The notes: generated from the sequence alone by a model not told the origin. DNA of 38,975 nucleotides from Pseudobdellovibrionaceae bacterium (GCA_044359815.1 JBIKLL010000019.1:1-38975), one strand, 5' to 3'; counted from the first letter of the stretch, positions 3,283 to 32,974 are shown. Made by a program: numbers and translations.

Positions 3283-3504
3283 CAAAATTTATATTCAAGA
3301 CATGGCGTCCTTTTCATAGAATAAAAAATTAAATATATAATTCTATTTAAAACGGTCACAGCTCTTTATTTCGTATCGCCACTCAAATCGCTCGGCCCAA
3401 AGGGCCCCGCCTTCCAGGCTCCGCAGAGGAGCGTTTTAAATAGAATTATATATTTAATTTTTTATTCTATGAAAAGGACGCCGGGTCCAATAATTTAAAT
3501 TTTG
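3283..3504 (-). repeat. Long-hairpin element copy 1: perfect 51-bp inverted repeat around a conserved GC-rich core
   Basis: Arms 3304-3354 and 3432-3482 are exact reverse complements. Outer pairing CAAAATTTA (3283-3291) with TAAATTTTG (3496-3504). Core 3354-3432 is shared with copies at 17781-17842 and 28590-28652. The strand label is only the orientation relative to copy 3. Confidence 0.9.
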
Positions 3505-3589
3505 GATAATTGATTTGCTTTTGATTTGTTGTACCATCAAAATCTTAAATGTTTTTGGATTGAAGCATTTTATATAAAGCGAGGTTGTT

Positions 3590-4138
3590 TTGAAAAACAC
3601 TGTGATCAGATTAATGGATGGGACGCTGGCAAAATTATTTAAATTTGAAAAACGGATAAAGTTTTTACTGTTAGCTGTTTTTTCATCGGTGCTTTGTTTC
3701 GGTCAATTTAGCTTAGCTGGTAACCTGGGTTTGGGTCTGATTTTGGGATCACCCACTGCATTTACTGGAAAATTTTATCGCACAAACACGATTGCCTATG
3801 ATTTTGGAATTGCGTTTTCACTGTCTGATTATTTGTTGGTTTATTCGGATTATTTAATCCACGTGCCTAATGGAGTTTTTAAAAACCCGCGACTGACTCC
3901 GTATTATGGAATTGGCGGAATTGTTGTTTCAACCAGAACCTCTAGATCCAGCAATGATAAAATTTTGGGTAAGGATTCTGGCTCTTTGGGTGCAGGAGTC
4001 CGTGTTCCATTCGGTGTGGACTGGCGACCAGCGACTCCTCCATTGGCGTTTTTTGCAGAAATAGTTCCTGGATTAGCTGTGATTCCTGAAACCGGCGTTT
4101 TGGTCGAAGGTGGAATTGGCCTACGGTATTTTTTCTGA
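3590..4138 (+). CDS. Small outer-membrane beta-barrel-like protein (DUF3996-like)
   Basis: Signal peptide, then GLGLILGSPTAFTGK, amphipathic strands (GVRVPFGVDW, FFAEIVPGL) and C-terminal GIGLRYFF. The true start may be downstream of the TTG. Confidence 0.65.
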   Translation: MKNTVIRLMDGTLAKLFKFEKRIKFLLLAVFSSVLCFGQFSLAGNLGLGLILGSPTAFTGKFYRTNTIAYDFGIAFSLSDYLLVYSDYLIHVPNGVFKNPRLTPYYGIGGIVVSTRTSRSSNDKILGKDSGSLGAGVRVPFGVDWRPATPPLAFFAEIVPGLAVIPETGVLVEGGIGLRYFF

Positions 4139-4146
4139 ATTAAAAA

Positions 4147-5757
4147 CTAGGTGTTCACACATTTTAAAAACTGAGGGCCGCTGATTAAAACAACTGAGCT
4201 GCGTGGAACCTTTTTGCCACGATCCGGCCAATCACTGGTCAGGTTAGCCAAATCTTTGGTGTCCTCACCTGGATGTTGCACCGACAGAATCAGCGCTTCA
4301 CTGTTGGGTAAAAAACAGGGCCCTGTAAATTCAGCACCCATGGGTGCCGAAGCTACTTGAATAGGCGTCCCCGCATGAGGTCCGCTCATCGGTATAAACA
4401 ACAAAGCATTGTTGCCAAAATTTTTGTAGGCCTCTTTCAAAGCCGGATTAAACGATCGGTCTGTTGTAATCCACAAATTCCCACCTTTATCGAAGGCCAA
4501 ATTATCTGGACAACTGAGCCCGGATTCCAGGCCACCCATCATCCAAGTTTTGTAATCAAATTCCATCGACAGTGGATTAGAACCTGATTCAGAAATTTTC
4601 AAAATACTGCCGTGGGGCCGCCCCTTGGGAATATTGTTGGTCAATGCAATAAAAATATCTTTGGTGATGGGATCTTGTTTTATGTCTTCGGGCCGATCCA
4701 ATGGAGTTCCACCAACGACTTTTGCGGCTTCCCGAGCAAAACACAAAAGCTCAGTTTGGTCATAAAACATTTCTGCTAATTTTGGATGCGCGGATAAAAC
4801 CAAGGGCATCCATCGTTTGTTTTCTAAACTGGCTACAAACAGAGTTCCTGTTTCCAATGAATTGGGTTTGTCTGAAATAAATTTATAAATGCACTGATCA
4901 TTTGCATCATCACCCATGTACACAACGGTTCTGCCATCAGCAGCTTTTACACAGGTCGCGCCTTCATGGGAAAATCTGCCCAAGGCCACAAGCTTTTTAC
5001 CCTCACCAGTTGCAGGATTGATTTCAACAACCCAACCATAATGCATAGGTGATCTGGGATAATACTGTGCCCATCCCATGTCTTCTTTCTCGTGAAAAAC
5101 TTTTGTCTTGTCCGCTGAGGATTTAAAATCCCCGTAAAAATGCATAAAATTTTCTTCGCAAGTTAAAACCGTTCCCCAAGGCGTGACCCCTCCAGCACAA
5201 TTTCCCAAAGTTCCTAACGCCGTGTTTGATCCATCAATTTGTCTGAGGGCTGAAAACTTCAAAGGTGTTTTAGCTGTGATTCTGCGATTAAATGGGTGGG
5301 TTTTATCGACCTTCCAAATGCCTTCGTCCTTCAACATTCTAACAATACTGCCACCGACTGCATCCATTTCGGCACTCACTATTTCCTTGGGCTTCTTGCT
5401 GCCAGGTTTATCCACATATCCCAGATGTAAAAGTGAATTCACGTCTTCGTGATTCGTCCATAAATAGCCTTCGACTGGGTTACTGCTATCCAAAGGAATA
5501 AAGGCATTAAAATCACAGTTTGAACCAAATTTCTGTGCAGAGTCTGCACTGATGTTTTCGTTTGATTTCAGCAAAACAGAATAACTAAAGCCCTTGGCTA
5601 AAACTAAATCATCGGCTTTTGTTGGCGCCAATCTGGTAAAAGTACTTTCTAAAGATGGTTTCACCAAAGTCGAACATCCCACAGTTGGTGCAATGGCTGC
5701 AACCACTCCGGTTCTGCCAATAAATTCTAAAAACTGTCTTCTGGTTAACTGATCCAA
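4147..5757 (-). CDS. phoX: PhoX-family (DUF839) alkaline phosphatase, Tat-exported, probable lipoprotein
   Basis: TRRQFL twin-arginine signal and VGC lipobox-like Cys. Motifs NHE, NCAGGVTPWGTVLTCEEN, GRFSHE, DRPED, PDNL, AEFTGP and SVQHPGE. Confidence 0.85.
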   Translation of the reverse strand: MDQLTRRQFLEFIGRTGVVAAIAPTVGCSTLVKPSLESTFTRLAPTKADDLVLAKGFSYSVLLKSNENISADSAQKFGSNCDFNAFIPLDSSNPVEGYLWTNHEDVNSLLHLGYVDKPGSKKPKEIVSAEMDAVGGSIVRMLKDEGIWKVDKTHPFNRRITAKTPLKFSALRQIDGSNTALGTLGNCAGGVTPWGTVLTCEENFMHFYGDFKSSADKTKVFHEKEDMGWAQYYPRSPMHYGWVVEINPATGEGKKLVALGRFSHEGATCVKAADGRTVVYMGDDANDQCIYKFISDKPNSLETGTLFVASLENKRWMPLVLSAHPKLAEMFYDQTELLCFAREAAKVVGGTPLDRPEDIKQDPITKDIFIALTNNIPKGRPHGSILKISESGSNPLSMEFDYKTWMMGGLESGLSCPDNLAFDKGGNLWITTDRSFNPALKEAYKNFGNNALLFIPMSGPHAGTPIQVASAPMGAEFTGPCFLPNSEALILSVQHPGEDTKDLANLTSDWPDRGKKVPRSSVVLISGPQFLKCVNT

Positions 5758-6344
5758 TTGATTCTTCCTTCCAATTTACGAGGTGCTTTCGGCGGATTGT
5801 GATCTGGATACCCTAAAGTGACTGCACAAAGCAACTCTAGTTCTGTCAAATTATAGTCAGGTAAATCTTGAATTTTTAAAAACTCATCGACTTGCTGCTT
5901 GATTTCCAATGGAGCCCCCATGGTGCAAGTCCCCAAACCCTCGACTAAAGCTGATAAGCAGATATTCTGCACAGCCATGTAGACACTGCCAACGCTGGTT
6001 AAATGTTTTTCTTCAGGTGAGTTGCACGAGTAGCAAAATATAATCACCGGAGCTTCGCCCAAAGTATAAAAAAATCTTTCTGTAAACTCATACAGCGAAG
6101 GCTTTAATTGTTTTTGCAGGACAGCCTTGATCCCTTCAAATGATTTTTGCGAATAGTGCAAATACTCGTTTCGCTTGTCACCTGTCACAACAAAAAATTT
6201 CCAGTTCTGTCTGTTCTTTCCGCTAGGTGCGTGAGTCGCAGCATTCAGAATTCTTTCAATGACCTCTTTCGGAGGAAGGTCTGGTCTGTATTTACGAATA
6301 GATTTTCTGGATTCGATTAGGCGATAAAAGTCTTCCTTATTCAT
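5745..6344 (-). CDS. Nitroreductase family protein
   Basis: RKSIRKY, APSGKNRQNWKF, GLGTC and LGYP motifs. Overlaps the phoX start, suggesting co-transcription. Confidence 0.9.
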   Translation of the reverse strand: MNKEDFYRLIESRKSIRKYRPDLPPKEVIERILNAATHAPSGKNRQNWKFFVVTGDKRNEYLHYSQKSFEGIKAVLQKQLKPSLYEFTERFFYTLGEAPVIIFCYSCNSPEEKHLTSVGSVYMAVQNICLSALVEGLGTCTMGAPLEIKQQVDEFLKIQDLPDYNLTELELLCAVTLGYPDHNPPKAPRKLEGRINWIS

Positions 6345-6367
6345 AGTTTTTCAGTATAAATTTTATT

Positions 6368-6844
6368 ATGCGCTTTTGTCTATTTTTACTGAGTCATATT
6401 CATTGGCTGATTACGGGTGTCGCAGTGATCGGGATTTTTTTGCTGACGCAAGAAAAATACGCCAATTGGACCCGGGACACTTTTCAGTCAAACCGTAAAA
6501 AGATTTATTCTTATGCAGAAATGCAGATTCCAAACTCAACAGAAAAAATAACTGTCTACAAGGTTTTGTCTGAGGGCTCCTTGGTCCTTGAGGCACTGTT
6601 CGAGGACGATGGCAGAGTCACAGATCGTCGCAGGCTAGTACTGCCCCAAAGTCAAAATGCCTTTATGAATTTCAGGGGACAATACACTGATTTGGTTTTG
6701 TCAGATTTTGATAATGATGGAACCTTAGAGCTGGTGGCCCCGGCTTTTGATAACGAGATGATACCCAGGCTTAATATCTTCAGACTGGATCCCGAAAATC
6801 ATGGTTTCACAAAACTGGGACCTGGATCGACTACTTTTTTTTAG
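6368..6844 (+). CDS. Hypothetical membrane protein with a DxDxDG (DFDNDG) motif
   Basis: N-terminal TM helix and an FG-GAP/EF-like DFDNDGTLEL. Convergent 14-bp overlap with mltG. Confidence 0.6.
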   Translation: MRFCLFLLSHIHWLITGVAVIGIFLLTQEKYANWTRDTFQSNRKKIYSYAEMQIPNSTEKITVYKVLSEGSLVLEALFEDDGRVTDRRRLVLPQSQNAFMNFRGQYTDLVLSDFDNDGTLELVAPAFDNEMIPRLNIFRLDPENHGFTKLGPGSTTFF

Positions 6845-7898: not shown

Positions 7899-7901
7899 GC
7901 G

Positions 7902-11787: not shown

Positions 11788-11790
11788 AAA

Positions 11791-13170: not shown

Positions 13171-13196
13171 TGAATACTCCTTTTCTGGGAAGATTC

Positions 13197-13225: not shown

Positions 13226-13275
13226 GGTCAGCTGCCCATAGACAGAGACAAATTACGAGAATAAAATTCCTTACT

Positions 13276-17170: not shown

Positions 17171-17183
17171 GAAAGGAATTTTT

Positions 17184-17702: not shown

Positions 17703-17929
17703 ATTTTTATCTGAAGAGATCATCTGATCTAACCTATTTTATCCTTTAGAAATAAAATGATCATCGCTTTTAGTTAAAAAGGTCACAGCTCGTGCTTCTC
17801 TGCTCGGGCAAAGCCCCCGCCGTCCAGGCTCCGCAGAGGACCTTTTTAACTAAAAGCGATGATCATTTTATTTCTAAGTCACAAACTTGTTAGATCAGAT
17901 GAATTTAAAAACTAAAAATTTGGTTTTTC
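17693..17929 (-). repeat. Long-hairpin element copy 2: perfect 39-bp inverted repeat plus outer stems around the conserved core
   Basis: Arms 17746-17784 and 17839-17877 are perfect. Outer stems are 17720-17733 with 17889-17902 (14 bp, perfect) and 17693-17709 with 17913-17929 (one G-T pair). Core is 17781-17842. Confidence 0.9.
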
Positions 17930-18312: not shown

Positions 18313-18624
18313 CATTTAGCTGGTCAAAGGGCTTGAAAAGCGAGTGCTTTCAACCAGATCTTGGTCGGGTTGATCAATGATTCGTCGAAATATTTGAGTT
18401 TCAAAAAATAAAACGAATGTCCCCGTAAAATTTCGATGGATGTCTCATTCTGAGAATACTGACCAATTGATTGACGTTTTGTTGTCCATTCTTTTGCCAC
18501 TGAGGGTGATTGTCCTGTCCAGCCTTTGTACAGCCAATTTAGCAGTGTTTTTTGTCTCAGGAAAAAGCGAAAATCAGACGATAGGATGTTGAAATCCTAC
18601 GAGATTTTAAAAAGGGGGACATCC

Positions 18625-18816
18625 ATGAGAAATATTAAAAACTTTTTGAACAAATTTGCAAAAGACGAGTCCGGTCAAGGGACCGCAGAATACGTCTTGT
18701 TACTGGCAATCGTTATTGCCCTGGTAGCAATGTTCAGAAACAAAATCAGAACCGCTTTCGAATCGCAAACAAACGCTGTTAGTAGCGGAATCAGCGATTT
18801 TTCGGGCAACGAATAG
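18625..18816 (+). CDS. flp: Flp family pilin
   Basis: ATG after an AGGGGG RBS. Leader KDESG|QGTAEY with E+5/Y+6, followed by a hydrophobic helix. Confidence 0.92.
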   Translation: MRNIKNFLNKFAKDESGQGTAEYVLLLAIVIALVAMFRNKIRTAFESQTNAVSSGISDFSGNE

Positions 18817-18864
18817 TTTCTGAGCTTTAGAATTTAGGCTTAAGGCAAAAAGGGGGAAGTGGTT

Positions 18865-19065
18865 ATGACAGTCGAATACGTTTTACTGCTGGCTCTTTTT
18901 GCTTTTTTTATTCTGAACGCATTGGTCGGCGGACCTCAGAAAACTTTCAAAGAGGCCGCCCCCAGATTAGGCGCCAGGATAGAAAATCACCTGACGACAG
19001 GTGATGCCTTTATTCAGCCAACAAAAACATATCCACAAGGAAACCGATGGATCGATCGCAAATAG
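18865..19065 (+). CDS. Second Flp-like/minor pilin without a prepilin leader
   Basis: MTVEYVLLLALFAFFIL. In-frame stop at 18841-18843. RBS spacing favours ATG 18865 over GTG 18859. Confidence 0.7.
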   Translation: MTVEYVLLLALFAFFILNALVGGPQKTFKEAAPRLGARIENHLTTGDAFIQPTKTYPQGNRWIDRK

Positions 19066-19559
19066 ACTTTTTATCAATCGTTAAAATATCAGCTGCTGTA
19101 GCCAGTTTGGGCTTTGCAGTTTGGTCTGATTTGAAATCCAGAAAAATTTCAAACAGAACCAATTTGATTATTTTTGCGATCGGTATTCTGGCTTCCTTGC
19201 TTCACGATCCATCAAACGCACTTGAGCTTGCACTGTCTGTACTCACTGCGACAGCCATCATTATGCCGGTTTATATTTTAAAAATTCTGGGTGGTGGTGA
19301 TGCTAAACTGTTCATAGCCCTATCGACATTTTTGACTCCACAGGGAGTTCTTGAATGCTTTGTGGCTTCGTTGATTTGGGGATCGATCCTGGGATTATTG
19401 ATTGTGATTAACAAATCACAGTTGTCGGGATTTGTTTCAAATATCAAAATGCTTTTTTACAGACAAAAGCCTGCAAATGAAACCTTACACAAGATTCCGT
19501 TTTCAGTTGCCATTGCCTTTGCGTATTTGACTCATTTGGTTTTAAGGGGGTCACTATGA
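19047..19559 (+). CDS. cpaA: Prepilin peptidase CpaA/TadV (A24 family)
   Basis: SDLKSRKISN and LGGGDAKL catalytic Asp motifs, IPFSVAI, multi-TM. Confidence 0.88.
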   Translation: MDRSQIDFLSIVKISAAVASLGFAVWSDLKSRKISNRTNLIIFAIGILASLLHDPSNALELALSVLTATAIIMPVYILKILGGGDAKLFIALSTFLTPQGVLECFVASLIWGSILGLLIVINKSQLSGFVSNIKMLFYRQKPANETLHKIPFSVAIAFAYLTHLVLRGSL

Positions 19560-19813
19560 TAATGACTTCTGTTAATAATCAAAAGGGACAGTTTGTTGTT
19601 GAAGCCGTGTTGCTGCTGACAGTAGTTATGGCTTTGACCATGTTAACCAGACAGTTTTTTTCCAGCACAGAATTTGGTAAATCATTAGTCAGCTCACCCT
19701 GGCAGAAATTATCCGGAATGATCGAATGCGGTAGCTGGAATGGCTGTGCACCAGGCAATCATCCCAGCACAGCACAACGTGCTCTAACCTTTGATCCAAG
19801 GGGGAGACAATGA
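19556..19813 (+). CDS. TadE-like pseudopilin
   Basis: NQKG|QFVVE prepilin motif, hydrophobic helix and a Cys pair. Confidence 0.75.
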   Translation: MIMTSVNNQKGQFVVEAVLLLTVVMALTMLTRQFFSSTEFGKSLVSSPWQKLSGMIECGSWNGCAPGNHPSTAQRALTFDPRGRQ

Positions 19814-20418
19814 TGAATCAAAAAGGATTTATTTCAATTGATTTTATGTTTGCCTTTGTGATTTGTTTTGCAATGTCAGCAATTATTTTTTCATTCACTG
19901 TGACCTTAACTGTAGTCGAGATTGCTCAGTATATTGTGTTTTCAACTTCGCGGGCCGCAACCGCAGCCCATGTCAATGTTGAAGAACAAGAAAAACTGGG
20001 ACGTAACAAATACAGCTCACTTTTAAATGACCGAGTTTTTAAGTCACTTTTTTCAAACGGCTGGTTTTCATTGTCTAAGGTTCAGGAACTGGAACTCAGA
20101 ATGGGTAGTGGAGTAAACTATGAATCCGACTATCCATCTAAAGGCAATGCAAACAGAAGTATTTTTCATGGAGCCAGATCTACATTTTCTGCACCTATAT
20201 TAAATATGAATCTGCCCTTTATCGGCGGCACAGATCCCGAGGATGCAGGGTTCAAGGCAAAAATCGCTGCGATTTTGTTCAGAAATCCCAGCCAGAAAGA
20301 ATGTCAGGATTTTATGGCCGCCAGACTGAATGCCATTTGGGCCCTGGAAGGCAATCGCGGCATCAGATTTAAAGGAAACTCTTCTGGACCTACACCCTTT
20401 GAGGACAACGGATGCTAA
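19810..20418 (+). CDS. TadE/TadF-like pseudopilin
   Basis: NQKG|FISID prepilin-like motif (Asp at +5), long hydrophobic helix and SRAA. Confidence 0.7.
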   Translation: MMNQKGFISIDFMFAFVICFAMSAIIFSFTVTLTVVEIAQYIVFSTSRAATAAHVNVEEQEKLGRNKYSSLLNDRVFKSLFSNGWFSLSKVQELELRMGSGVNYESDYPSKGNANRSIFHGARSTFSAPILNMNLPFIGGTDPEDAGFKAKIAAILFRNPSQKECQDFMAARLNAIWALEGNRGIRFKGNSSGPTPFEDNGC

Positions 20419-20924
20419 AAATCAAAACCAATCCTCTTATTAATGAAAAAGGCATCGCGATGATTGAAATCATTCCCATCATCGCAGTGTTTGTGTTGTT
20501 GCTAAATTTTTCCATTGGATTTTTTGGTGTTATACATTCAGGAATACTGGCATCCATCGGTGCCAGAAATTACGCCTTTGAAACCTTTCAGTTCAGATCA
20601 AATCTTAATTATTTTCGTGACAACAGCGGGGGACTTGATTTTACCTACTATTCAATAGGATACAGATTTCACGCCAATATATCTGAAACTAATACAGAAT
20701 CTTATTATTATTCGGCACTCAGACCCATTAAATTTACTGACGTCAAAGGCGTCAATGATCCTGCCGGCAATGCTGAAGAACACAGAAAACTGGCAGCGAT
20801 TCAAGAGGGCAAATTAGCATCTGACGTAGGCGTCAGCGAAGGCGTAAGCCCAGTATGGATTAAAACTTTGTATGGCATGTGTATGACGGCATCTTGTGGA
20901 ACTCAAATTAGGAGTGCACCATGA
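20412..20924 (+). CDS. TadE-like pseudopilin
   Basis: NEKG|IAMIE motif, PII, GARNYA and a C-terminal Cys pair. Confidence 0.75.
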   Translation: MLKIKTNPLINEKGIAMIEIIPIIAVFVLLLNFSIGFFGVIHSGILASIGARNYAFETFQFRSNLNYFRDNSGGLDFTYYSIGYRFHANISETNTESYYYSALRPIKFTDVKGVNDPAGNAEEHRKLAAIQEGKLASDVGVSEGVSPVWIKTLYGMCMTASCGTQIRSAP

Positions 20925-21805
20925 ACAACGAATCCAGAACACTATGGTTATCATTGGGGGCAGGGCTGTTTGCAGCATTTTTGCTGTACAGTTATTCACA
21001 AGAGAAAAAGGCCGAATACGACAAGGTCTACGGAACCATGAAAAACGTTGTGATCGCTGCAAAAGATATCAATGAAATGACAACGATCGATGACACTATG
21101 TTAGAGGTCATTCAAAAACCTGCGGATTTTCTGGAGCCAGCCAGCATCAACGATCCCGAACAGGCTGTGGGACAGGTCGCTGCCACACCGATCAAAAAAG
21201 GCGAACAGCTTTTGACTACTAAATTGTTACAACCGGGACCAGACACAGGGATTTCGTTGCAAGTAGCACCCACAAAACGTGCTGTGACCCTGCCCATTGA
21301 TGAGGTTCGTGGTGTGGCAAAACTAATCAGACCTGGTGATCGCGTAGACATTTATGCCGCTGTGGATTCTGGCAAAGGCATCAATTCAAAACGTGAAGTG
21401 ACTTTAATTATGCAAGACGTAGTTGTTTTAGCGACTGGTGTGAACGTTGTTAACAATATCCCCAGAACCATTGAATACGACAGCACAGGCAAAAATGTGA
21501 TACAAACATCACTGACTGGAAACACTCAGTACAATTCAATCACTATCGAAGCTACGCCAAAAGAAGCACAAGACCTTATCTATATATATTCAACCTCGCC
21601 TTCAAATTTATTTTTTACTTTGAGAAATCCTAATGACCGAGCTTTACCACCAAGGCTGCCCAGCTCAACTTCGGATTCAGTGATGGGCAGACCCAGTGTA
21701 GAAATGCCTGCGGCGGTGACACCAGTCACATTGCCGCCTCCTGCGCGTACCGTTCCCAGGGCACTTCCACCAAAAAAGAATCCGGGAGGGTTTAAAAACC
21801 TATGA
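20921..21805 (+). CDS. cpaB: Flp pilus assembly protein CpaB/RcpC
   Basis: TM, SAF-like VVIAAKDI, RAVTLPID...LIRPGDRVDI, VLATG, LRNPND and a Pro-rich tail. Confidence 0.9.
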   Translation: MNNESRTLWLSLGAGLFAAFLLYSYSQEKKAEYDKVYGTMKNVVIAAKDINEMTTIDDTMLEVIQKPADFLEPASINDPEQAVGQVAATPIKKGEQLLTTKLLQPGPDTGISLQVAPTKRAVTLPIDEVRGVAKLIRPGDRVDIYAAVDSGKGINSKREVTLIMQDVVVLATGVNVVNNIPRTIEYDSTGKNVIQTSLTGNTQYNSITIEATPKEAQDLIYIYSTSPSNLFFTLRNPNDRALPPRLPSSTSDSVMGRPSVEMPAAVTPVTLPPPARTVPRALPPKKNPGGFKNL

Positions 21806-23346
21806 GTACGCACATCAAATCACCGATCGCAATTTTATTGTCGATCCTAACATTTATTCTGTTAAGCGAGCCTTCTATGGCTCGTAGGCCAGCCAGTGTA
21901 GACACAGCTTCGACCGAAGAAGAAGTGGACGTAAAAAACGAAAAAAGCCGTAAGGCAATCAAGCTAACTATTGGCACAACCTCGGATGAACTACTGCCAG
22001 CCAACATGCCTTCAAACGTGACCTTTAATGGTTCATTCAAGAAAGTCACCGAGGCTCAGTTTTCAAAAGAAAGTAACACCGTCAGATTTATCCCTAAACG
22101 CGAAGGCGATGGGATCATGACGATCTTGGACAGCAAAGGCCGAATCGTAAAAGAATTTGTATTGATCGTCAGAAAATCCAAAGTGGACGCCGTGATGAGG
22201 GAAATCCAGGCCTTATTGGGTGACATCGAAGGCATTCAGATAAAAATCGTTAACAACAAAGTTGTTGTTGATGGTCAGGTTTTACTGCCCCGAGATATGA
22301 CCAGGATTTACAATGTCGTAAAACAATTTGGTGATGAGCAGGCTGATTCACTTGTATCGCTTTCGCCACTTGCACAGAAAAAAATTGCGGAATTTATCGC
22401 TAGGGACATCAACAATCCAGAAATCGAAGTCCGTGCCGTTAACGAAAAATTTATTCTCCAAGGCGTTGCCGGAAGCGAAGAAGAAAAACAGCGCGCAGAA
22501 ATTATCGCCAAGACTTACATTCCACCTATTATTATTGAGAGAGCTGTGCGGGACCAAATCGTTAAACCTGCAAAACCAGCTAATGATGGTGTGATTAATC
22601 TAATCACCGTCAAACCTGCACCGCCACCATCACCAGGTAAGATTATTCAGTTGGTGGTTCACTATGTAGAGCTTAAAAAAGATTATTCAAAGGGTTTCAG
22701 ATTTCAGTTTACGCCTGCCATTGATGATAAAACCAATATGACCTTTTCATCCAGCTCACAGGAGCCCGGTGGAGTGACATCATCAATCACTGGTGTGATC
22801 AATAATTTATTACCTAAACTAAACTGGTCAAAAAGCCACGGGCACGCCCGAGTTTTAGAAAGCACCAGTATGATTGTTCAAGACGGAAAAACCGGAACAA
22901 TCAATGCCTACAGTGAAATTCCCTATCAGACGATCACTAAAGACGGTCCTTCGACAGGATTTAAACCTGTGGGTATCGCATCACGAATCACACCTGTGAT
23001 TTTAGGTGAAAGATCTGATTCAATTAATCTGGATATTGCATTTAAAATTGATGCTTTGATTGGTATTGACGGTAACGGACCACGTACCAGCACAAACCAA
23101 ATCGAAACTTCGATCGTAGTCAGAAGCGCACAGAGTGCTGCAATTGGTGGCTTGATCAGAAACTCAGCCGCTACTGGATATAATAACCCTCAGGGACTGC
23201 CTCAGAATCCCATCATCAGTTTATACGCATCAAAAGATTTTCAACGGAATCAAAGTCAGTTCGTGGTTTTTGTGACCCCAATTATCAAGGCCAGCGCCAG
23301 CACGGGTTCAGAAAAAATCAAAAAGAAGTTCAGACTTCAGGACTGA
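21802..23346 (+). CDS. Tad secretin RcpA/CpaC-like protein with BON-like domains
   Basis: Signal peptide, T2SS-T3SS_pil_N-like and BON-like segments, and secretin motifs (GHARVLES, EIPY, SAAIGGL, FVVFVTP). Confidence 0.8.
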   Translation: MSTHIKSPIAILLSILTFILLSEPSMARRPASVDTASTEEEVDVKNEKSRKAIKLTIGTTSDELLPANMPSNVTFNGSFKKVTEAQFSKESNTVRFIPKREGDGIMTILDSKGRIVKEFVLIVRKSKVDAVMREIQALLGDIEGIQIKIVNNKVVVDGQVLLPRDMTRIYNVVKQFGDEQADSLVSLSPLAQKKIAEFIARDINNPEIEVRAVNEKFILQGVAGSEEEKQRAEIIAKTYIPPIIIERAVRDQIVKPAKPANDGVINLITVKPAPPPSPGKIIQLVVHYVELKKDYSKGFRFQFTPAIDDKTNMTFSSSSQEPGGVTSSITGVINNLLPKLNWSKSHGHARVLESTSMIVQDGKTGTINAYSEIPYQTITKDGPSTGFKPVGIASRITPVILGERSDSINLDIAFKIDALIGIDGNGPRTSTNQIETSIVVRSAQSAAIGGLIRNSAATGYNNPQGLPQNPIISLYASKDFQRNQSQFVVFVTPIIKASASTGSEKIKKKFRLQD

Positions 23347-23362
23347 TTTTTAGAGGGGGAAA

Positions 23363-25609
23363 ATGTATATCAATCAGCAGTGTCATTTAATTGCTGTAAC
23401 CGGTGGCAAAGGTGGCGTCGGCAAATCTGTATTTGCTGTGAACCTGGCTATGGCCATTCAGTTTGAACTAAAATCCCCAGTTTTATTAATTGATGCTGAT
23501 CAAAGATCTTGCGGTGACCTCAATGTTTTATTGGGCATCAGACCCAACAAAACAATTGCTGACGTGGCACAATTTCAGGGATCAATGACTCCTCAGAACC
23601 TACCGCAATTGGTAACGCCCCACCCATCAGGGATTGGATTTATCGGTGCGGTCCGAGGGCCCGAAGAAACCCTCAACGTGCAGGCTGATTTATTTTTAAA
23701 ACAACTGGAACATTTGAGCCGGCATTATAAATACATCATCGTGGATGTGGGTCACGATTTCAAAGAACTGCAGCTAAAGATGATGCAAGAATCTACATGT
23801 ATTACCATTGTCACTGTGCCTGAGCTTTTGGTTATCAATCAAACTCAGCGATTGATCCATGATTTGCTGACAGCGACTTTTCCCTTGGACATGATGCAAC
23901 TGGTGATCAACAAGGTCGGTCCCTCTGGATTAAGTCCACAGGCAATTTCGCAATCATTAAAACTGACTGCCATGGCGATGATTCCACAGGACGATATAAG
24001 TGCTTCTGGATCCATTCAAAGGGGACAGCCTTTTGTGATGGCCCAAAACAGACTGCCAATCAGTCAGGCTTATCATGAATTTGTTCGCAGACTGACCGGC
24101 GGAGTTTTGCAAAGATTAAAAACTTTAAACAGACCCACTGCCCCTATCAGCAGTGCTGCCAGCTCGGGAGCCTTCCCATCAATGGCTCCCAGTCAACAAT
24201 CAGCAAATCCTTTGGGCGACAATGCTCAACAGATTGATCCCAGAAATGTGCTTAAGATCAGAATCCACAACGAACTGATTAAGGCCATGGATTTAAAAAA
24301 AGGCATTACCGAAACCAACAATGACCCTGCCAAAGAAGCCGCCTTAAAACAAAAAACTTTGCAGACCATCACTCAGCTGGTCGATCGCGAAGCTCCAAAC
24401 ACTGCCCGCGAGGAACGTTCAAAAATTATCAAAGAAGTTCTTGAGGAAGCTTTGGGTTTGGGACCACTGGAAGATTTGCTGAAAGATCCCAACGTGACCG
24501 AGGTCATGGTTAATGGATATAAAAAGATTTTCGCCGAAAAAAGCGGAAGAGTTTCATTAACACCAGTTACCTTCACATCCAATTTACATTTAAGAAACGT
24601 GATTGAACGTATCGTGACTCCATTGGGCCGCAGAATCGATGAGAAAACTCCTTACGTGGACGCCAGATTAAAAGACGGCAGCCGCGTGAATGCCATCATC
24701 GAACCGCTGGCAATTGATGGACCATCACTGACAATCCGAAAATTTAAAAAAGGCGGAATCACTGCCGAAAAATATATTGAATACGGTTCAATCACAAAAC
24801 CGATGATTGATTTTTTAAAAATCTGCGTTGAAAACGGACTCAATGTTGTTATCAGTGGTGGTACTGGGTCTGGTAAAACCAGTTTATTAAATATGCTTTC
24901 AGGATTTATCCCAGCACATGAACGTATCGTCACTGTTGAGGACGCTGCCGAATTACAAATGCAACAAGATCACGTAGTCAGATTGGAAAGCCGTCCCGCA
25001 AATATGGAAGGCACTGGGGCCGTCACAATCAGGGACCTGGTCAGAAACGCCTTGCGTATGCGACCCGACCGAATCGTTGTTGGAGAGTGCCGTGATGGCG
25101 CTGCCCTGGACATGTTATCAGCGATGAACACGGGTCATGATGGTTCAATGACAACCACTCACGCGAACTCGCCCCGTGAATGCATCGCCAGGCTTGAAAC
25201 ACTGTGTTTGATGGCCGGAATGGATTTGCCTATCAGAGCGATTCGCGAACAAGTCGCCAGTGCCGTGAATCTGATTATTCAGATTTCAAGACTCAGCGAT
25301 GGATCCAGAAAGGTCACCAGCGTGACCGAAGTATGCGGCATGCAGGGTGACACAGTAACACTGCAGGAAGTTTTTAGATTCAAAGAAACTGGTTTTGATA
25401 AAAACAGAAAAATCATGGGAAACTTTCAAGCTATGGGTTTGATACCCACATTTATTGAAAAACTTGAAGCCAAGGGTGTTTACATCAGTCGCGATCTGTT
25501 TAGCAATGATCCCAATCTGATGTCCACGCCCACTGCTAAACCCGCCACAAAATCCGCCCTGGATCCTATGGCTGCCTTCAGAAAAACTGGTACTGGAGGT
25601 AAGACCTAA
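23363..25609 (+). CDS. tadA: Fused CpaE/TadZ (MinD/ParA-like) and CpaF/TadA pilus ATPase
   Basis: N-terminal deviant Walker A GGKGGVGKS. C-terminal GLGPLE, DARLKDGSRVN, GGTGSGKT, EDAAEL, LRMRPDRIVVGE and AMNTGHDGS. Confidence 0.92.
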   Translation: MYINQQCHLIAVTGGKGGVGKSVFAVNLAMAIQFELKSPVLLIDADQRSCGDLNVLLGIRPNKTIADVAQFQGSMTPQNLPQLVTPHPSGIGFIGAVRGPEETLNVQADLFLKQLEHLSRHYKYIIVDVGHDFKELQLKMMQESTCITIVTVPELLVINQTQRLIHDLLTATFPLDMMQLVINKVGPSGLSPQAISQSLKLTAMAMIPQDDISASGSIQRGQPFVMAQNRLPISQAYHEFVRRLTGGVLQRLKTLNRPTAPISSAASSGAFPSMAPSQQSANPLGDNAQQIDPRNVLKIRIHNELIKAMDLKKGITETNNDPAKEAALKQKTLQTITQLVDREAPNTAREERSKIIKEVLEEALGLGPLEDLLKDPNVTEVMVNGYKKIFAEKSGRVSLTPVTFTSNLHLRNVIERIVTPLGRRIDEKTPYVDARLKDGSRVNAIIEPLAIDGPSLTIRKFKKGGITAEKYIEYGSITKPMIDFLKICVENGLNVVISGGTGSGKTSLLNMLSGFIPAHERIVTVEDAAELQMQQDHVVRLESRPANMEGTGAVTIRDLVRNALRMRPDRIVVGECRDGAALDMLSAMNTGHDGSMTTTHANSPRECIARLETLCLMAGMDLPIRAIREQVASAVNLIIQISRLSDGSRKVTSVTEVCGMQGDTVTLQEVFRFKETGFDKNRKIMGNFQAMGLIPTFIEKLEAKGVYISRDLFSNDPNLMSTPTAKPATKSALDPMAAFRKTGTGGKT

Positions 25610-26484
25610 TGGGTTGGCTTGCAAACGATTCATTGATGATTATTTCTGTTTCTGCCTGTGTGTTTTTAGCATTTTATTTTATGTCTGATCGCGTACTGGG
25701 TTTTGTACAAACCAAAAGCGCCAGTCAACGTGATGAAATCTTGAAAATGCTTGAGATGATGTTTGTTGAAACCAATCGCAGACGATTGGCCATCATGCTG
25801 TACCTTATGAGCTACGGTTTGGCCTTAGTTGTGTTTCTGGTACTGCTTCCCAATGTGCTTTTGGGCACAGTGATGGCCATGGCTTTTGGGGTTTTGGGTT
25901 CAATATTGCCCAAATTATTTATTAAGTCTTTGTTTGAAAAAAGATGTTCAAAATTTGTGGCACAGATGGTTGATGGCTTAACAATTATGTCCAATGGTGT
26001 GCGCAGCGGATTAAGTGTTGTGCAATCAATGGAGCGTGTTGCGGAAAACCTGCCCAATCCTATATCGCAAGAATTTGCCTTGGTGCTGTCACAAATCAGA
26101 ATCGGTCGCAGTGTCGAAGAAGCCCTGATTGATCTGGGTGATCGTATTCAAAAACCTGATGTTCAGATGTTTGTTACCTCGATTAATATTTTAAAAGAAA
26201 CCGGTGGTAATTTAGGGGAAACCTTTACCACGATTTCATTAACCATCCGTGAGCGACAAAAAGTCGAAAAAAAGATCGAAGCCCTAACAGACCAAGGTGT
26301 GGTTCAAGGTATGATTATTACCTTAGTCCCGTTCTTGATGATCATTTTGTTTCTGGCAATAGACCCTAGCTATATAAAACCCATGTTTACTACGACCATG
26401 GGAATTGTATTTTTGGGAATGATGATACTGCTGCAAATTATTGGTGGCATTGCTATTAGAAGAATTGTTAAAATAAAAGTGTAA
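25609..26484 (+). CDS. tadB: Tad inner-membrane platform protein TadB
   Basis: T2SSF-type domain with RSGLS, PISQEF, ETGGNL and IRER motifs, plus TMs. Confidence 0.88.
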   Translation: MGWLANDSLMIISVSACVFLAFYFMSDRVLGFVQTKSASQRDEILKMLEMMFVETNRRRLAIMLYLMSYGLALVVFLVLLPNVLLGTVMAMAFGVLGSILPKLFIKSLFEKRCSKFVAQMVDGLTIMSNGVRSGLSVVQSMERVAENLPNPISQEFALVLSQIRIGRSVEEALIDLGDRIQKPDVQMFVTSINILKETGGNLGETFTTISLTIRERQKVEKKIEALTDQGVVQGMIITLVPFLMIILFLAIDPSYIKPMFTTTMGIVFLGMMILLQIIGGIAIRRIVKIKV

Positions 26485-26506
26485 ACCTAAAAGAAGGACT
26501 TCAAGG

Positions 26507-28147
26507 ATGAAAGCACTTTTATTGATTCTTTTTTATTCTGTTTCGGCGTGGTCCGTCGTTGATATGCGAAACGCAAATTATGCGCAAACTTGGACCGACC
26601 TCCAAGTTCCAGGAACTGGTTATGATTTAAAAATCACCAGAACCTATAACAGCAAATCGCTGTTTGATGGAATGTTTGGCTATGGTTGGTGCAGCGACTG
26701 GGAGACCAAATTGGATTTCACGGCTGAAGGAAATATTAAAGTTACCGAATGCGGCGCAGGCGCTGAATTGTTTTTTACTCCGCGCGAATTCGGTAAAAAA
26801 GAAATCGACGATACTATTGCTAAAATCATTGAAAAAGTAAAACAGGCCAAAAAAGCCGATGAAAAATCAATTCAAGAATTAGCTGCAGAAATGGTCAGTG
26901 ATCACAATCTGCGGGCTAAGTTCGCATACAGCTACAAAGTAGCCATTCCTGTGAAGGAAGGAACTACTTTTTATGCCAATGGCTCTGAGGTTGAACGCAT
27001 TACCTTGTCTAAGGGACTTTACACCAGATACATGGCCGATGGCAGTTATGCAAAATTTGATAAAGAGGGCCGACTGTTAAATTTCTTTGATAAAAACGGA
27101 AATTTTCTGAAGCTGGATTATGACAAAGGAAATCTGACAGAAGTTGTCGACAACAACGGCCGCAGACTGACGTTCAAATATTATCCTAATAAAAAAGTCA
27201 AATCAGTGAATGGCCCAAACAATCTGAACTCTGAATACAAATATTCTAATCTGGATGATTTAAGTAATGTGAAAAATGCTTGGGGAAATAATTTTAACTA
27301 CACCTACGATGATACTCATAATCTTACGGGTATTGGCTATCCAGATAAAACCACTGTGGCTATCACTTATGACAAAAAAAATGACTGGGTAACAAGCTTT
27401 GTTGACAGGGACAAATGCAAGGAAGACTACACCTACGAATTTAACGAAAAGAATCCTCAAATGCATTACTGGTCAACGGTTAAAAAGACTTGCAATAAAG
27501 AAGTCACAACCGAAGCCAGATATGAATTCTGGTATGGCGAACGTAAGGACGGTCAGGTTTATTTGCAAAAGGCATTGACCAAGGTCAACGGTAATTCAAC
27601 CGAGATCACTTATCATGATACATTTGGTAAGCCGACATCATTAAAAAGAAATTCTGAAGGTTTTGTGTTTGAGTACTATCCAAACGGTCTGGTAAAAACC
27701 AAAACCACTCCCAGATTAAAAATGAGTTACAAATACAATAATGAACTGAACAAGGTTTCCGAAGTTTTTTCGCAGTCCTACGATGAAGCTGGAAAACCGT
27801 TGGGTACAAAAAAATCAGTTTTTAGATACGATAAAAAAGGCAATATGGTTTATGCCGAAAATTCTGACGGACAAAAAATCAATATGTCCTACGACATCAA
27901 AGGCCGTGTTGCTACGATATTGGATCACACTAAAAAAACAGTTAAAATTCAGTACGAAGAAAAATACGGCAAACCACAGATTGTTTCAAGACCCGGCTTG
28001 GGCAGTATTTCAATCAGTTACAAGCAAAATGGCGAAATGGATAAAGTGAATTCTCCTGAAGGGCCCAGTGTGGCATTACAGGTAGCCAGTACATTTAACA
28101 ATTATTTGGATGTGATGCAGCCGGCATTACAAGAAATTTATAATTAA
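26507..28147 (+). CDS. Secreted RHS/YD-repeat protein (DUF6531-like N-terminus; Bd0109-like)
   Basis: Signal peptide, RTYNS...GMFGYGW, and many YD-type repeats. No PxxxxDPxG motif or toxin tail. Confidence 0.85.
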   Translation: MKALLLILFYSVSAWSVVDMRNANYAQTWTDLQVPGTGYDLKITRTYNSKSLFDGMFGYGWCSDWETKLDFTAEGNIKVTECGAGAELFFTPREFGKKEIDDTIAKIIEKVKQAKKADEKSIQELAAEMVSDHNLRAKFAYSYKVAIPVKEGTTFYANGSEVERITLSKGLYTRYMADGSYAKFDKEGRLLNFFDKNGNFLKLDYDKGNLTEVVDNNGRRLTFKYYPNKKVKSVNGPNNLNSEYKYSNLDDLSNVKNAWGNNFNYTYDDTHNLTGIGYPDKTTVAITYDKKNDWVTSFVDRDKCKEDYTYEFNEKNPQMHYWSTVKKTCNKEVTTEARYEFWYGERKDGQVYLQKALTKVNGNSTEITYHDTFGKPTSLKRNSEGFVFEYYPNGLVKTKTTPRLKMSYKYNNELNKVSEVFSQSYDEAGKPLGTKKSVFRYDKKGNMVYAENSDGQKINMSYDIKGRVATILDHTKKTVKIQYEEKYGKPQIVSRPGLGSISISYKQNGEMDKVNSPEGPSVALQVASTFNNYLDVMQPALQEIYN

Positions 28148-28157
28148 GAGGTTAGGG

Positions 28158-28508
28158 ATGAAAAATTTAATTTTAATATTAGCAGTTATGTTCGGATCAC
28201 AAGTCATGGCTGACGACACCACTGCAAACCGAGAACCTGCCAATGAATCGGCTACAGTAAATATGGCTGATCCCGAGATGAATAACAACCGAGGTACAGA
28301 ATTACAAGGCAAGCATGTTTCTGAAATTGGTTGCCCTGAATGCTTACGGCAAATAGGTCGCAGCAACATTGGTGAATCCGCTATTTTAAGGGAAAAGTAT
28401 TTTTATAATCTGTTACCCGAAGAACAAACCTCTGTCCCAGCTAGTTTAAAGCAAGCACCTGCCGGCAAAGGGGTGCAAGACAAAATTAGCCCCCCAAAGA
28501 AAAAATAG
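28158..28508 (+). CDS. Small secreted CxxC protein; probable hit-locus (Bd0108-like) protein
   Basis: Signal peptide, low-complexity polar sequence and GCPEC. Lies directly after the RHS gene and tad cluster, as Bd0108 does in B. bacteriovorus (from recall). Confidence 0.65.
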   Translation: MKNLILILAVMFGSQVMADDTTANREPANESATVNMADPEMNNNRGTELQGKHVSEIGCPECLRQIGRSNIGESAILREKYFYNLLPEEQTSVPASLKQAPAGKGVQDKISPPKKK

Positions 28509-28546
28509 CCAAATTAGCGTCCAACCATCGCGGGAATTATTTAGCG

Positions 28547-28699
28547 GCAGAATTTTTTAGAAATACAAACATCTGATTTTATTTAAATGGGTTCTCCGCG
28601 GAGCCGGGATGGCGGGGGCGCAGCCCGAGCGGATGAAGCACGAGCTGTAACCTTTTGAAGTGAAATTTTATACTTGAATTTTTCAGATACAAATTCTGC
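28547..28699 (+). repeat. Long-hairpin element copy 3 (opposite orientation, imperfect arms)
   Basis: Core 28590-28652 is GGTTCTCCGCGGAGCCGGGATGGCGGGGGCGCAGCCCGAGCGGATGAAGCACGAGCTGTAACC. Flanks pair with G-T wobbles and mismatches. Outer stems are ATCTGA/TCAGAT and GCAGAATTT (28547-28555) with AAATTCTGC (28691-28699). Confidence 0.85.
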
Positions 28700-32973: not shown

Positions 32974-32974
32974 A

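What the first reader, a model, noticed from the sequence alone, without database searches (positions are those of the whole stretch)
3283..28699. Dispersed family of long hairpins capped by a conserved, covarying branched core (3 copies)
Seen, all cores written in one orientation. Copy 2 (reverse complement of 17781-17842): GGTC C TCTGC GGA GCC TGGAC GGC GG GGGC TTT GCCC GA GCAGA GA AGC ACGA GCT GT GACC. Copy 3 (28590-28652): GGTT C TCCGC GGA GCC GGGAT GGC GG GGGC GCA GCCC GA GCGGA TGA AGC ACGA GCT GT AACC. Copy 1 (reverse complement of 3354-3432): GCTC C TCTGC GGA GCC TGGAA GGC GG GGCCC TTT GGGCC GA GCG...GAGCTGT GACC, with an insertion in the last part. Changes are compensatory: GGTC/GACC versus GGTT/AACC, TCTGC/GCAGA versus TCCGC/GCGGA, and GGGC/GCCC versus GGCCC/GGGCC. 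Junction bases (GGA, GG, GA) and the loop GGA are invariant. Each core tips a 150-240 bp hairpin beginning at or within about 40 bp of a stop codon. Inference: a structured ncRNA or ssDNA element under selection for its fold. Options include a non-autonomous mobile element (REPIN/MITE-like) moved by an enzyme encoded elsewhere, a 3'-UTR processing or protein-binding module, or a new ribozyme-like RNA. I do not recognise it as a named family. Three copies in 39 kb suggests many copies genome-wide.
Basis: partly seen in the sequence, partly recalled or inferred. Interest (0 to 1): 0.85.

Follow-up and report, generated by a model that had tools for sequence, protein, structure and literature searches.

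The report
Capped palindromic repeats of predatory bacteria
The genome of a Bdellovibrio-like predatory bacterium carries about 64 copies of a long DNA hairpin whose tip is a small, conserved, precisely folding module that its relatives also keep; it looks like an undescribed repeat element that sits where genes end, and what the folded tip does is still unknown.

Summary
The three cores are the only copies in the window. The family has about 64 copies in this 2.95-Mb genome of an uncultured Bdellovibrio-like bacterium. Each copy is a near-perfect hairpin of 135-256 bp. Its tip is a 54-70-nt asymmetric GC-rich module that folds into five helices, P1-P5. The fold covaries within the genome. It also covaries across the order, where diverged homologues occur in 27 of 151 genomes. 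No Rfam family matches.

The copies fill the gaps behind gene ends; 34 of 60 lie between convergent genes. Arms of different copies are only 62% alike, yet the two arms of one copy are 95% complementary. No transposase, target duplication, RAYT link or U-tract was found.

My best reading (0.5) is a REPIN/ERIC-like, non-autonomous palindromic repeat whose cap is read on one strand, probably as RNA. A host-functional ncRNA is the main rival. I rate it a new variant of a known kind, interest about 0.6.

Earlier notes of this scan describe similar capped palindromes in other Bdellovibrio-like genomes. I could not link them by sequence.

The parts
3302..3482 (-). Copy 1: the whole hairpin (about 181 nt), beginning 24 nt after the stop codon (3278) of the + strand ORF 2100-3278
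   Evidence: RNA fold of window 3296-3488 (-): -96.1 kcal/mol, z -13.1. Sequence. ORFs.
3354..3432 (-). Copy 1 core, long-form variant: P5 is replaced by a 24-25-nt insert and P4 is lengthened
   Evidence: Covariance-model match 3344-3442 (-), E 8e-7. Long-form alignment of 14 copies.
17720..17902 (-). Copy 2: the whole hairpin. The near-perfect inner part is about 17744-17877. It begins about 20 nt after the stop (17702) of a phosphoribosyltransferase gene.
   Evidence: RNA fold -99.8 kcal/mol, z -12.9; the minimum-energy fold reproduces P1-P5. Pfam.
17781..17842 (-). Copy 2 core, canonical short form (P1-P5, 62 nt)
   Evidence: Covariance-model match 17771-17852 (-), E 2e-16. First row of alignment A1.
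28547..28699 (+). Copy 3: a degraded hairpin with imperfect arms, about 40 nt after the stop (28508) of ORF 28158-28508
   Evidence: RNA fold z -1.6 only. Palindrome limits.
28590..28652 (+). Copy 3 core, short form of the GGTT/AACC, TCCGC/GCGGA subfamily
   Evidence: Covariance-model match 28580-28662 (+), E 1e-12. Alignment A1.

Best explanation
This is an undescribed family of intergenic palindromic repeats of Bdellovibrio-like bacteria. I call them hairpin-cap elements.

A copy is a hairpin of 135-256 bp (median 174). Its arms only have to pair with each other. Its tip is a 54-70-nt asymmetric module that folds on one strand into a stem (P1) closing a three-way junction. One branch of that junction (P2) closes a second junction carrying two small hairpins (P3, P4). 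The other branch is a small hairpin (P5). The junctions are purine-rich and two loops carry GGA.

I think it works like REP/REPIN or ERIC-type elements. The whole hairpin is a non-autonomous unit that has been copied to new sites by machinery supplied in trans, which is unknown. It survives only in the short gaps behind gene ends, where it stands in the place of a terminator hairpin. The cap is the specific handle, read on one strand of a single-stranded nucleic acid, most likely RNA. The arms are kept complementary by hairpin-templated correction (template switching within the palindrome, or fold-back copying) together with selection for folding.

Shown here: the copies, the fold and its covariation, order-wide conservation, position, compensated arms, and strand asymmetry. 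Inferred: mobility in trans, RNA rather than ssDNA, and any benefit to the host.
For: Copy number: 46 pattern hits against 0 for the reversed control, 62 covariance-model hits and 64 nhmmer hits in 2.95 Mb.

Fold within the genome: 96.5% of 1144 cells pair, 18 of 31 pairs change on both sides, 0 of 500 shuffles reach this, and slid controls pair at 33-52%. RNAalifold independently recovers P1, P2, P3 and P5.

Fold across the order: 92.1% of 1510 cells pair, 29 of 30 pairs change on both sides, and slid controls pair at 37-44%.

Modularity: there are P3-less copies and long-form copies.

The whole hairpin is the copied unit. C101, C104 and C109 share 84-90% identity over 176-186 bp, ending at the hairpin base, with unrelated flanks.

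Arms: 3314 matched against 114 mismatched positions. Between-copy identity is 0.62 against within-copy 0.948. Among stem differences between close copies, 604 are compensated on both arms and 107 are not.

Position: 34 convergent, 19 tandem, 2 divergent and 5 contig-edge of 60 copies. The median gap from stop codon to hairpin base is 20.5 nt, and 57 of 90 gene ends lie within 30 nt.

The same slot holds a canonical terminator in relatives that lack the element (L193, L273).

Lineage pattern: 27 of 151 genomes of the order and 11 of 151 of the phylum sample. In a scan of all GTDB species, real members came only from one Pseudobdellovibrionaceae MAG.

Strand asymmetry in 72 elements of relatives: G.U 91 against A.C 42, and G.A/A.G 129 against C.U/U.C 17. 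The sense core is predicted more stable than the antisense core in 50 against 9 (own genome) and 42 against 28 (relatives).
Against: No mobilising enzyme was found. The genome's RAYT is flanked by another repeat. RAYT-like genes are not adjacent to elements in relatives, and two nearly complete genomes with elements (G075, G019) gave no RAYT-like hit. The 8-copy Y1-like gene family does not track the element.

No consistent target-site duplication or defined terminal repeat was seen at clean junctions. This was judged by eye.

No two copies are more than about 90% alike, so there is no sign of recent activity.

No empty or filled site is available in a close relative. The best orthologue of a flanking gene is 75% identical.

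In one genus-level group of relatives the element is inherited vertically at one locus. It is found in 17 of 30 species and is antisense to prpD in 17 of 17. The cap there is strongly conserved, which suits a host function at least as well as a selfish element.

In this genome the arms show no significant strand bias (G.U 39 against A.C 26, p 0.14). No transcript evidence could be obtained.
Confidence: 0.5

Rival explanations
1. It is a host-functional structured ncRNA module rather than a selfish repeat. The cap is a protein-binding or tertiary-structured RNA domain displayed on a long processing or stabilising stem. It is transcribed on the core-sense strand, often antisense to the neighbouring gene or by read-through from a convergent gene. 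The many copies in this genome are a lineage-specific amplification of a useful part, for example a sponge for a GGA-loop-binding regulator or a boundary element between convergent transcripts.
For: Vertical inheritance with a conserved cap at one locus in 17 of 30 species while the arms diverge almost completely. Each of the 6 genomes of that group in the phylum sample has 2-8 matches. Strand-specific non-Watson-Crick features occur, including a conserved 3x3 G-N-A/G-N-A internal loop five pairs below the cap. The junctions are purine-rich and two loops contain GGA. Orientation is non-random in relatives: 22 antisense against 4 sense to the nearest gene end, out of 32 hits, of which 4 had no facing gene end and 2 were ties.
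Against: Orientation is random in this genome (10 sense and 9 antisense in tandem settings; 29 against 30 relative to GC skew). The hairpins fill the intergenic gaps, leaving no room for their own promoters. The spacer between paired elements is not conserved. GGA is replaced by CGA or UGA in many P5 and some P3 loops.
Confidence: 0.27
2. It is a single-stranded DNA site. The hairpin would extrude or fold during replication, repair or transfer, and the cap would be a strand-specific recognition structure for a recombinase, nuclease or primase. This is comparable in logic to integron attC sites, the folded attachment site of a filamentous phage, or single-strand origins.
For: The architecture is a long imperfect palindrome of variable sequence with a strand-specific structured tip. 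Strand asymmetry of mismatches is equally compatible with ssDNA. There is no target duplication, as expected of HUH-type or recombinase chemistry (by eye).
Against: There is no orientation bias relative to GC skew in this genome (29 against 30). In relatives the sense strand lies on the strand with negative local skew in 55 of 74 cases, which is not the strand expected to be exposed as lagging-strand template. That measure is confounded with gene orientation. The copies are dispersed, not arranged in arrays, and the conserved part is the tip rather than the base. No linked recombinase was found. There were no hits in viral contigs.
Confidence: 0.1
3. It is a new self-cleaving or otherwise catalytic small RNA carried by a repeat.
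For: It has a compact nested-junction fold with invariant unpaired purines and dispensable peripheral hairpins, it occurs in many copies, and it sits on a long closing stem.
Against: No Rfam ribozyme family matches even at E up to 10 on copy 2 or at E 0.05 or below on seven loci. P5 can be replaced by a different insert and P3 can be deleted, which is unusual for a catalytic core. No candidate cleavage site was identified.
Confidence: 0.05
4. They are ordinary transcription terminators whose loops happen to share ancestry.
For: They stand where terminators stand. The same slot holds a canonical terminator in relatives, and U-rich tracts follow some prpD copies.
Against: No U tract follows the hairpins in this genome. 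The T fraction is 0.30 and 0.29 against a genome value of 0.295, and TTTT occurs in 1 of 59 and 6 of 59 flanks. A terminator loop needs no conserved, covarying 54-nt structure. One conserved copy lies upstream of the SRP RNA gene between divergent genes, not behind a gene end.
Confidence: 0.05

Closest known systems
REP sequences / REPINs with their RAYT (TnpA-REP) transposase
   Same: Both are high-copy intergenic palindromic repeats that fold as single strands, sit behind gene ends and between convergent genes, persist vertically for long times, show compensated arm changes, and have no target duplication.
   Different: REPs are short palindromes, and a REPIN is two inverted REPs without a conserved branched centre (recalled). 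The defining RAYT gene flanked by the same repeat is not met here: this genome's RAYT (G000 C8:9501-10136) is flanked by a different 22-nt repeat that has 37 exact copies.
ERIC/IRU, YPAL, Correia, RUP and the Bacillus cereus bcr1-type repeats (MITE-like elements that form RNA hairpins; all recalled, not searched here)
   Same: They are repeats of 100-200 bp that are largely palindromic, are co-transcribed with neighbouring genes, and are reported to keep RNA secondary structure.
   Different: As far as I recall, those families have defined terminal inverted repeats and often target duplications, and they lack a conserved asymmetric multi-helix cap. Here the conserved part is the centre and the ends are ill-defined.
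Integron attC sites
   Same: Both are imperfect palindromes of variable sequence and conserved structure, placed just after stop codons, read as one folded strand, sometimes with a branched tip.
   Different: In attC sites the conserved sequence lies at the base and the tip is variable (recalled), and they stand in same-orientation cassette arrays beside an integrase. Here the tip is conserved, the base is variable, the copies are dispersed among housekeeping genes and their orientation is mixed.
Quasi-palindrome template-switch correction and snap-back inverted duplication (Ripley model).
   Same: It would explain why the two arms of a copy stay 95% complementary while copies drift to 62% identity, and why some palindromes reach beyond the family-conserved part.
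   Different: It is a mutational process, not an element. It does not explain the conserved cap or the spread to about 64 sites. In this genome the arms are homologous between copies, so they are not simply local duplications.
Rho-independent terminators
   Same: The position behind stop codons is the same, and the element occupies the slot where relatives lacking it have a canonical terminator.
   Different: There is no U tract, the stems are 45-100 bp, and the cap is a structured 54-70-nt module.

Membership tests
REP/REPIN-RAYT system | A cognate RAYT (Y1 HUH) gene flanked by copies of the same repeat | tested here: not met
   The single canonical RAYT-like gene (C8:9501-10136) is flanked by inverted copies of a different 22-nt repeat. 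Comparing coordinates, no RAYT-like gene of G081, G085, G123 or G161 lies next to an element.
REP/REPIN-RAYT system | The repeat co-occurs with a RAYT across genomes | tested here: inconclusive
   25 of 27 element-bearing genomes have a RAYT-like hit, but so do 78 of the other 124. G075 and G019 (both 99% complete) have elements and no hit.
REP/REPIN-RAYT system | High-copy intergenic palindromes with compensated arm changes | tested here: met
MITE derived from a DDE transposon | Target-site duplication of fixed length | tested here: not met
   I saw no direct repeats at the bases of clean palindromes (C55, C13, C53, C4, C30, C65 rows). This was judged by eye only. A TA duplication could not be told apart from an extension of the palindrome.
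MITE derived from a DDE transposon | An autonomous partner with the same ends and a transposase gene | tested here: not met
   Every element fully contained in its contig is a hairpin of 135-256 bp without an ORF (59 measured); all 62 covariance-model hits and all 64 nhmmer hits are short core matches. Only Y1 families were searched for as proteins. Other transposase families were not searched.
Integron attC | Conserved core sites at the base of the stem, arrays of cassettes in one orientation, and a neighbouring integrase | tested here: not met
   Conservation is at the tip and falls towards the base. The copies are dispersed on 50 or more contigs in both orientations. An integrase gene was not searched for.
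Intrinsic terminator | A hairpin immediately followed by a U tract | tested here: not met
   T fraction 0.30 and 0.29 against genome 0.295; TTTT within 12 nt in 1 of 59 (sense) and 6 of 59 (antisense) flanks.
Any Rfam 15 family, including the self-cleaving ribozymes | A covariance-model match | tested here: not met
   0 matches at gathering score in the window. Only hairpin-driven chance hits at E up to 10 on copy 2. On seven loci at E 0.05 or below, only microRNA-precursor models and an unrelated neighbouring c-di-GMP-I riboswitch matched.
Structured RNA (generic) | Covariation supporting a fold, on one strand | tested here: met
   29 of 30 pairs covary, and mismatches are strand-asymmetric. 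Caveats: alignment A2 was fitted to the model, and the sequences are related to one another.
Structured RNA (generic) | Evidence of transcription | not testable with these tools
   The run search returned no culture RNA-seq holding a relative's locus.

The most novel reading that the evidence does not exclude
The cap is a new class of structured RNA that is conserved throughout the Bdellovibrionales. It would be made from the strand opposite to the neighbouring genes and would have a biochemical activity of its own. For instance, it could be the recognition or guide module of a so far unknown way of copying hairpin-shaped DNA, a ribozyme, or a high-affinity decoy for a GGA-binding regulator. 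The 64-copy expansion in this genome would then be that system running at high gear.
Probability: 0.22. Interest if true: 0.8.

Novelty: new variant of a known kind. Interest (0 to 1): 0.6.

Why it matters
Bacterial repeat families such as REP, ERIC and MITEs are usually defined by their ends or by a short palindrome. Here the conserved, covarying part is a multi-helix cap at the centre, and the long stem is free to change as long as it pairs. That reverses the usual logic and points to a reader of the tip, not of the ends.

The family offers a natural experiment on how long palindromes are kept perfect: 85% of stem differences between close copies are compensated. It also offers a clean candidate for a new RNA or ssDNA-protein recognition module in predatory bacteria, some of which can be grown and manipulated. 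If the cap proves to be a handle for a new mobilisation mechanism or a regulatory RNA, it would be a useful part. If not, it is still an unannotated feature that breaks assemblies: several contigs end in it.

Tried and rejected
- Rfam: gathering thresholds on the window, E up to 10 on copy 2, and E 0.05 or below on seven loci including relatives and the long form. Nothing relevant.
- First collection scan with the 20-nt pattern. It returned 103 single hits in high-GC genomes. I took these for chance matches and did not use them.
- Viral contigs with two core patterns: 0 hits.
- The 8-copy, 206-aa Y1-like gene family as a partner. Its copies share only the gene plus about 60 nt and are flanked by short tandem repeats, not by the element. 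It occurs in 84 of 151 genomes of the order without tracking the element. Rejected.
- The canonical RAYT as a partner. Rejected for lack of adjacency.
- Orientation against GC skew in this genome: 29 against 30. No signal.
- Empty site in close relatives. A metagenome search with the flanking phosphoribosyltransferase found 21 loci, the best 75% identical. None of the 16 scanned carries the element. This is too distant to define insertion junctions.
- RNA evidence. The look-up of sequencing runs on a relative's locus gave only small shares in metagenome runs and unrelated raw-read runs. I did not lay reads.
- Literature: four full-text searches found no description. For Karunker 2013 (PMC3627812) I read the found passages and the small-RNA section.
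- Earlier scan notes by sequence: nothing.
- A conserved promoter upstream of the sense strand: none seen by eye in the 5' flanks of 72 relatives' elements or in the spacer of paired elements.
- Coding potential of the core: rejected, because the P4 loop varies in length and whole hairpins come and go.
- The fold of the long-form insert remains unresolved.
Full report
**What is in the window**

The three cores are present as described. A covariance-model scan of all 38,975 bases with filters off finds only these three: 17771-17852 (-), 28580-28662 (+) and 3344-3442 (-).

Copies 1 and 2 are very stable long hairpins as RNA: -96.1 and -99.8 kcal/mol, z -13.1 and -12.9 against 200 shuffles. For copy 2 the minimum-energy fold reproduces the branched cap. 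Copy 3 keeps an intact cap but has degraded arms (z -1.6).

Each hairpin starts 20-40 nt after a stop codon. The upstream genes are an unknown ORF (copy 1), a phosphoribosyltransferase (copy 2) and an unknown ORF (copy 3).

**Size of the family**

The window is contig C85 of a 2.95-Mb, 125-contig, 91%-complete genome with 41% GC. I did not verify the name.

- A 20-nt core pattern with up to 2 mismatches occurs 46 times. Read backwards, it occurs 0 times.
- A covariance model (R1) built from 38 short-form copies finds 62 matches at E 0.01 or below. Only 150 of 744 first-look candidates were scored.
- An nhmmer profile finds 64. Of these, 63 coincide with the earlier hits and one lies at a contig end.
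- Several contigs end inside a copy (C2, C76, C92, C41, C121).

**The cap and its fold**

The consensus of the 38 short-form copies is TATTTAAAAAGGTCCTCTGCGGAGCCTGGACGGCGGGGGCTTnGCCCGAGCAGAGAAGCAGGAGCTGTGACCTTTTTAAnTA.

The fold I tested has these parts:
- P1, which continues into the arms.
- One unpaired C.
- P2 (CUCUGC/GCAGAG), which encloses P3 (GCC, loop UGGAC, GGC) and P4 (GGGC, loop, GCCC). P3 and P4 are joined by GGA, GG and GA.
- GA, then P5 (AGC, loop AGGA or ACGA, GCU), then GU, then the P1 return strand.

On these 38 rows, 96.5% of 1144 cells form standard pairs and 18 of 31 pairs show changes on both sides. None of 500 shuffles reaches any of the five measures, and sliding the partner by 1-3 columns drops pairing to 33-52%. 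The 7 long-form copies and one contig-edge copy were left out of this alignment. RNAalifold, run without my structure, returns P1, P2, P3 and P5, and a shifted P4.

The cap is modular:
- Nine copies lack P3.
- Fourteen carry a long form in which P5 is replaced by a 24-25-nt insert. Copy 1 of the window is one of them.
- Seven copies combine both changes.

I could not settle the fold of the long insert. Changing loop lengths and the gain or loss of whole hairpins rule out a coding function.

**Relatives**

The exact pattern is not found in 40 relatives. Model R1, however, finds diverged homologues in 27 of 151 genomes of the same order, counting this genome. That includes 13 of 17 genomes of one genus-level group (g9), which give 1-5 matches each, and several genomes of two other families.

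A second model (R2), built from 58 matches, finds 2-8 copies in all 6 g9 genomes of a phylum-wide sample. Outside the order it hits only one genome of 151 sampled.

A two-part pattern scanned over one genome of each of 185,579 species gave 70 loci. Only 8 matches, in 6 loci of one Pseudobdellovibrionaceae MAG, are real members by R2. Two others are weak (E 0.003-0.004) and 62 are not members. Viral contigs gave none.

Across 53 distinct sequences from the order, 92.1% of 1510 cells pair and 29 of 30 pairs change on both sides. Slid controls pair at 37-44%. Four of five measures are reached by 0 of 500 shuffles and the fifth by 14 of 500. This alignment was fitted to the model and the sequences are related, so the figures lean towards the structure. 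Still, P2, P4 and P5 each show several different standard pair types.

No Rfam 15 family matches.

**The arms**

In every genome the cap sits on a long stem whose sequence differs from copy to copy and from species to species, yet pairs.

In this genome:
- The strict palindrome has a median arm of 58 nt, with 3314 matched against 114 mismatched positions in 59 copies.
- Whole hairpins are 135-256 nt, median 174.
- The arms are homologous between copies out to about 85 nt from the cap, with conservation falling outwards.
- They have diverged: the median identity of the inner 58 nt between copies is 0.62 (1770 pairs, maximum 0.88), against 0.948 between the two arms of one copy.
- In 54 close, ungapped copy pairs, 604 differing stem positions are changed on both arms with pairing kept in both copies, and 107 are not. 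These pairs are not independent.
- The best-matching copies (C101, C104, C109) are 84-90% identical over 176-186 bp, which is the whole hairpin, with unrelated flanks.

So the hairpin as a whole is the unit that was copied, no copy is recent, and complementarity has been maintained since. Some palindromes reach beyond the family-conserved part (C21, C29, C33, C43). This fits outward growth or nesting.

**Where the copies sit**

With a crude longest-ORF gene call, 34 of 60 copies lie between convergent genes, 19 between tandem genes, 2 between divergent genes and 5 at contig ends. For 90 gene 3' ends that face a copy, the median gap from stop codon to the base of the strict palindrome is 20.5 nt. 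In 14 cases they overlap, and 57 lie within 30 nt.

The hairpins are not followed by U tracts. Orientation of the cap is random in tandem settings (10 sense, 9 antisense) and relative to GC skew (29 against 30).

In relatives the same slot can hold an ordinary terminator:
- In the prpD-prpB spacer of 30 g9 species, 17 have a model-detectable copy.
- Three have reduced or divergent versions by eye (L186, L189, L195).
- Eight have none. Of these, some carry a short or canonical terminator hairpin (L193, L204) and in one (L208) prpB starts a few bases after the prpD stop.
- One locus is cut by a contig end and one is unclear.

The nearest metagenomic orthologue of the gene upstream of copy 2 has a canonical terminator there. 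None of 16 such loci has the element.

**Which strand is read**

The cap is asymmetric, so its orientation is unambiguous.

In 72 distinct elements of relatives, mismatches within the arms, read on the cap's sense strand, are G.U 91 against A.C 42, and G.A or A.G 129 against C.U or U.C 17. Many of the G.A pairs form a conserved 3x3 G-N-A/G-N-A internal loop five pairs below the cap. Orthologues are counted separately here, so these are not independent events. The known mutational biases of transcription and replication would, by my reasoning, push in the opposite direction.

The sense cap is predicted to fold more stably than its complement in 50 against 9 copies here and 42 against 28 in relatives. 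In this genome's nearly perfect arms the bias is weak (G.U 39 against A.C 26, p 0.14).

Yet in relatives the sense strand is usually opposite to the adjacent gene. It is opposite to prpD in 17 of 17 cases. It is antisense to the nearest gene 3' end in 22 of 26 assignable cases out of 32 hits; 4 hits had no facing gene end and 2 were ties. It lies on the strand with negative local GC skew in 55 of 74 cases.

Pairs of elements in minus-then-plus order, 220-400 bp apart between convergent genes, recur in three lineages. Their spacers are not conserved.

So a single strand is under structural constraint, but it is not the strand carried by the upstream mRNA. I could not obtain transcript data.

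**Search for a partner**

The genome has 9 matches to the Y1 transposase family.
- One is a canonical RAYT-like gene. It is flanked by inverted copies of an unrelated 22-nt repeat that has 37 exact copies genome-wide. This is a classical REP system, distinct from the element.
- Eight are paralogues of a 206-aa Y1-like protein, flanked by short tandem repeats. This family occurs in 84 of 151 genomes of the order and does not track the element.

RAYT-like genes occur in 103 of 151 genomes. They are present in 25 of the 27 element-bearing genomes but are never adjacent to an element, and two complete genomes with elements lack them. I found no target duplication (by eye), no ORF inside any copy and no longer autonomous version.

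**Interpretation**

I read the family as a REPIN/ERIC-like palindromic repeat with an unusual conserved structured cap (confidence 0.5). The arms are kept paired by hairpin-templated correction or fold-back copying together with selection. The copies are tolerated, and perhaps used, in terminator slots.

The main rival (0.27) is a host-functional RNA module. It is favoured by vertical conservation at fixed loci and by non-random orientation in the low-copy genomes. ssDNA-site, ribozyme and plain-terminator readings are less likely.

Four literature searches found no description. Earlier notes of this scan report capped, terminator-position palindromes in other Bdellovibrio-like genomes. I could not link them to this family by sequence.

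Noticed in passing
window 32815-32968, and G000 C8:9501-10136: A long inverted repeat of about 154 bp lies between convergent genes. Its outer ends are a variant of a 22-nt repeat, and a canonical terminator follows at 32970-33000. The exact 22-mer has 37 copies genome-wide and flanks, in inverted orientation, the genome's single canonical RAYT-like gene. This is a classical REP/REPIN-RAYT system, separate from the finding.
   Followed up: partly
G000 contigs C23, C48, C56, C47, C49, C100, C125, C8 (gene coordinates): Eight paralogues (80-86% nt identity) of a 206-aa protein with weak Y1-transposase similarity and an H-x-H motif. Each has a conserved 60-nt upstream block and is flanked by different 7-8-nt tandem repeat arrays. 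Homologues, often in many copies, occur in 84 of 151 genomes of the order.
   Followed up: partly
L152 1278-1358 (relative G073, contig C41): A c-di-GMP-I riboswitch (75.5 bits) with its terminator lies about 100 nt upstream of an element in the same orientation, and a second element lies about 550 nt further upstream. This recalls the riboswitch-containing merRNA of B. bacteriovorus but is not a general association.
   Followed up: no
L238 and L232 (relatives G081 and G089): The arms of the left element of a minus/plus pair in one species resemble the arms of the right element in the other. This suggests that the segment between the two inverted elements has flipped by recombination.
   Followed up: no
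5' and 3' flanks of elements in genus-level group g9: Many copies share short sequences just outside the hairpin base: TTCGAAGAC-like on one side and CCCCGCG-like after a CCAATCC stem end. At the prpD locus a small hairpin with a UUCG-type loop sits between the stop codon and the element.
   Followed up: no
window 18526-28147: A Flp-pilin and prepilin-peptidase (tad-type) locus starts downstream of copy 2. An RHS-repeat/DUF6531 protein (26507-28147) precedes copy 3. A PhoX phosphatase gene (4147-5757, - strand) lies near copy 1.
   Followed up: no
L162 (relative G127) and L192 (relative G187): Arrays of 20-nt and 7-nt tandem repeats directly adjoin elements or the prpD spacer in these relatives.
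   Followed up: no
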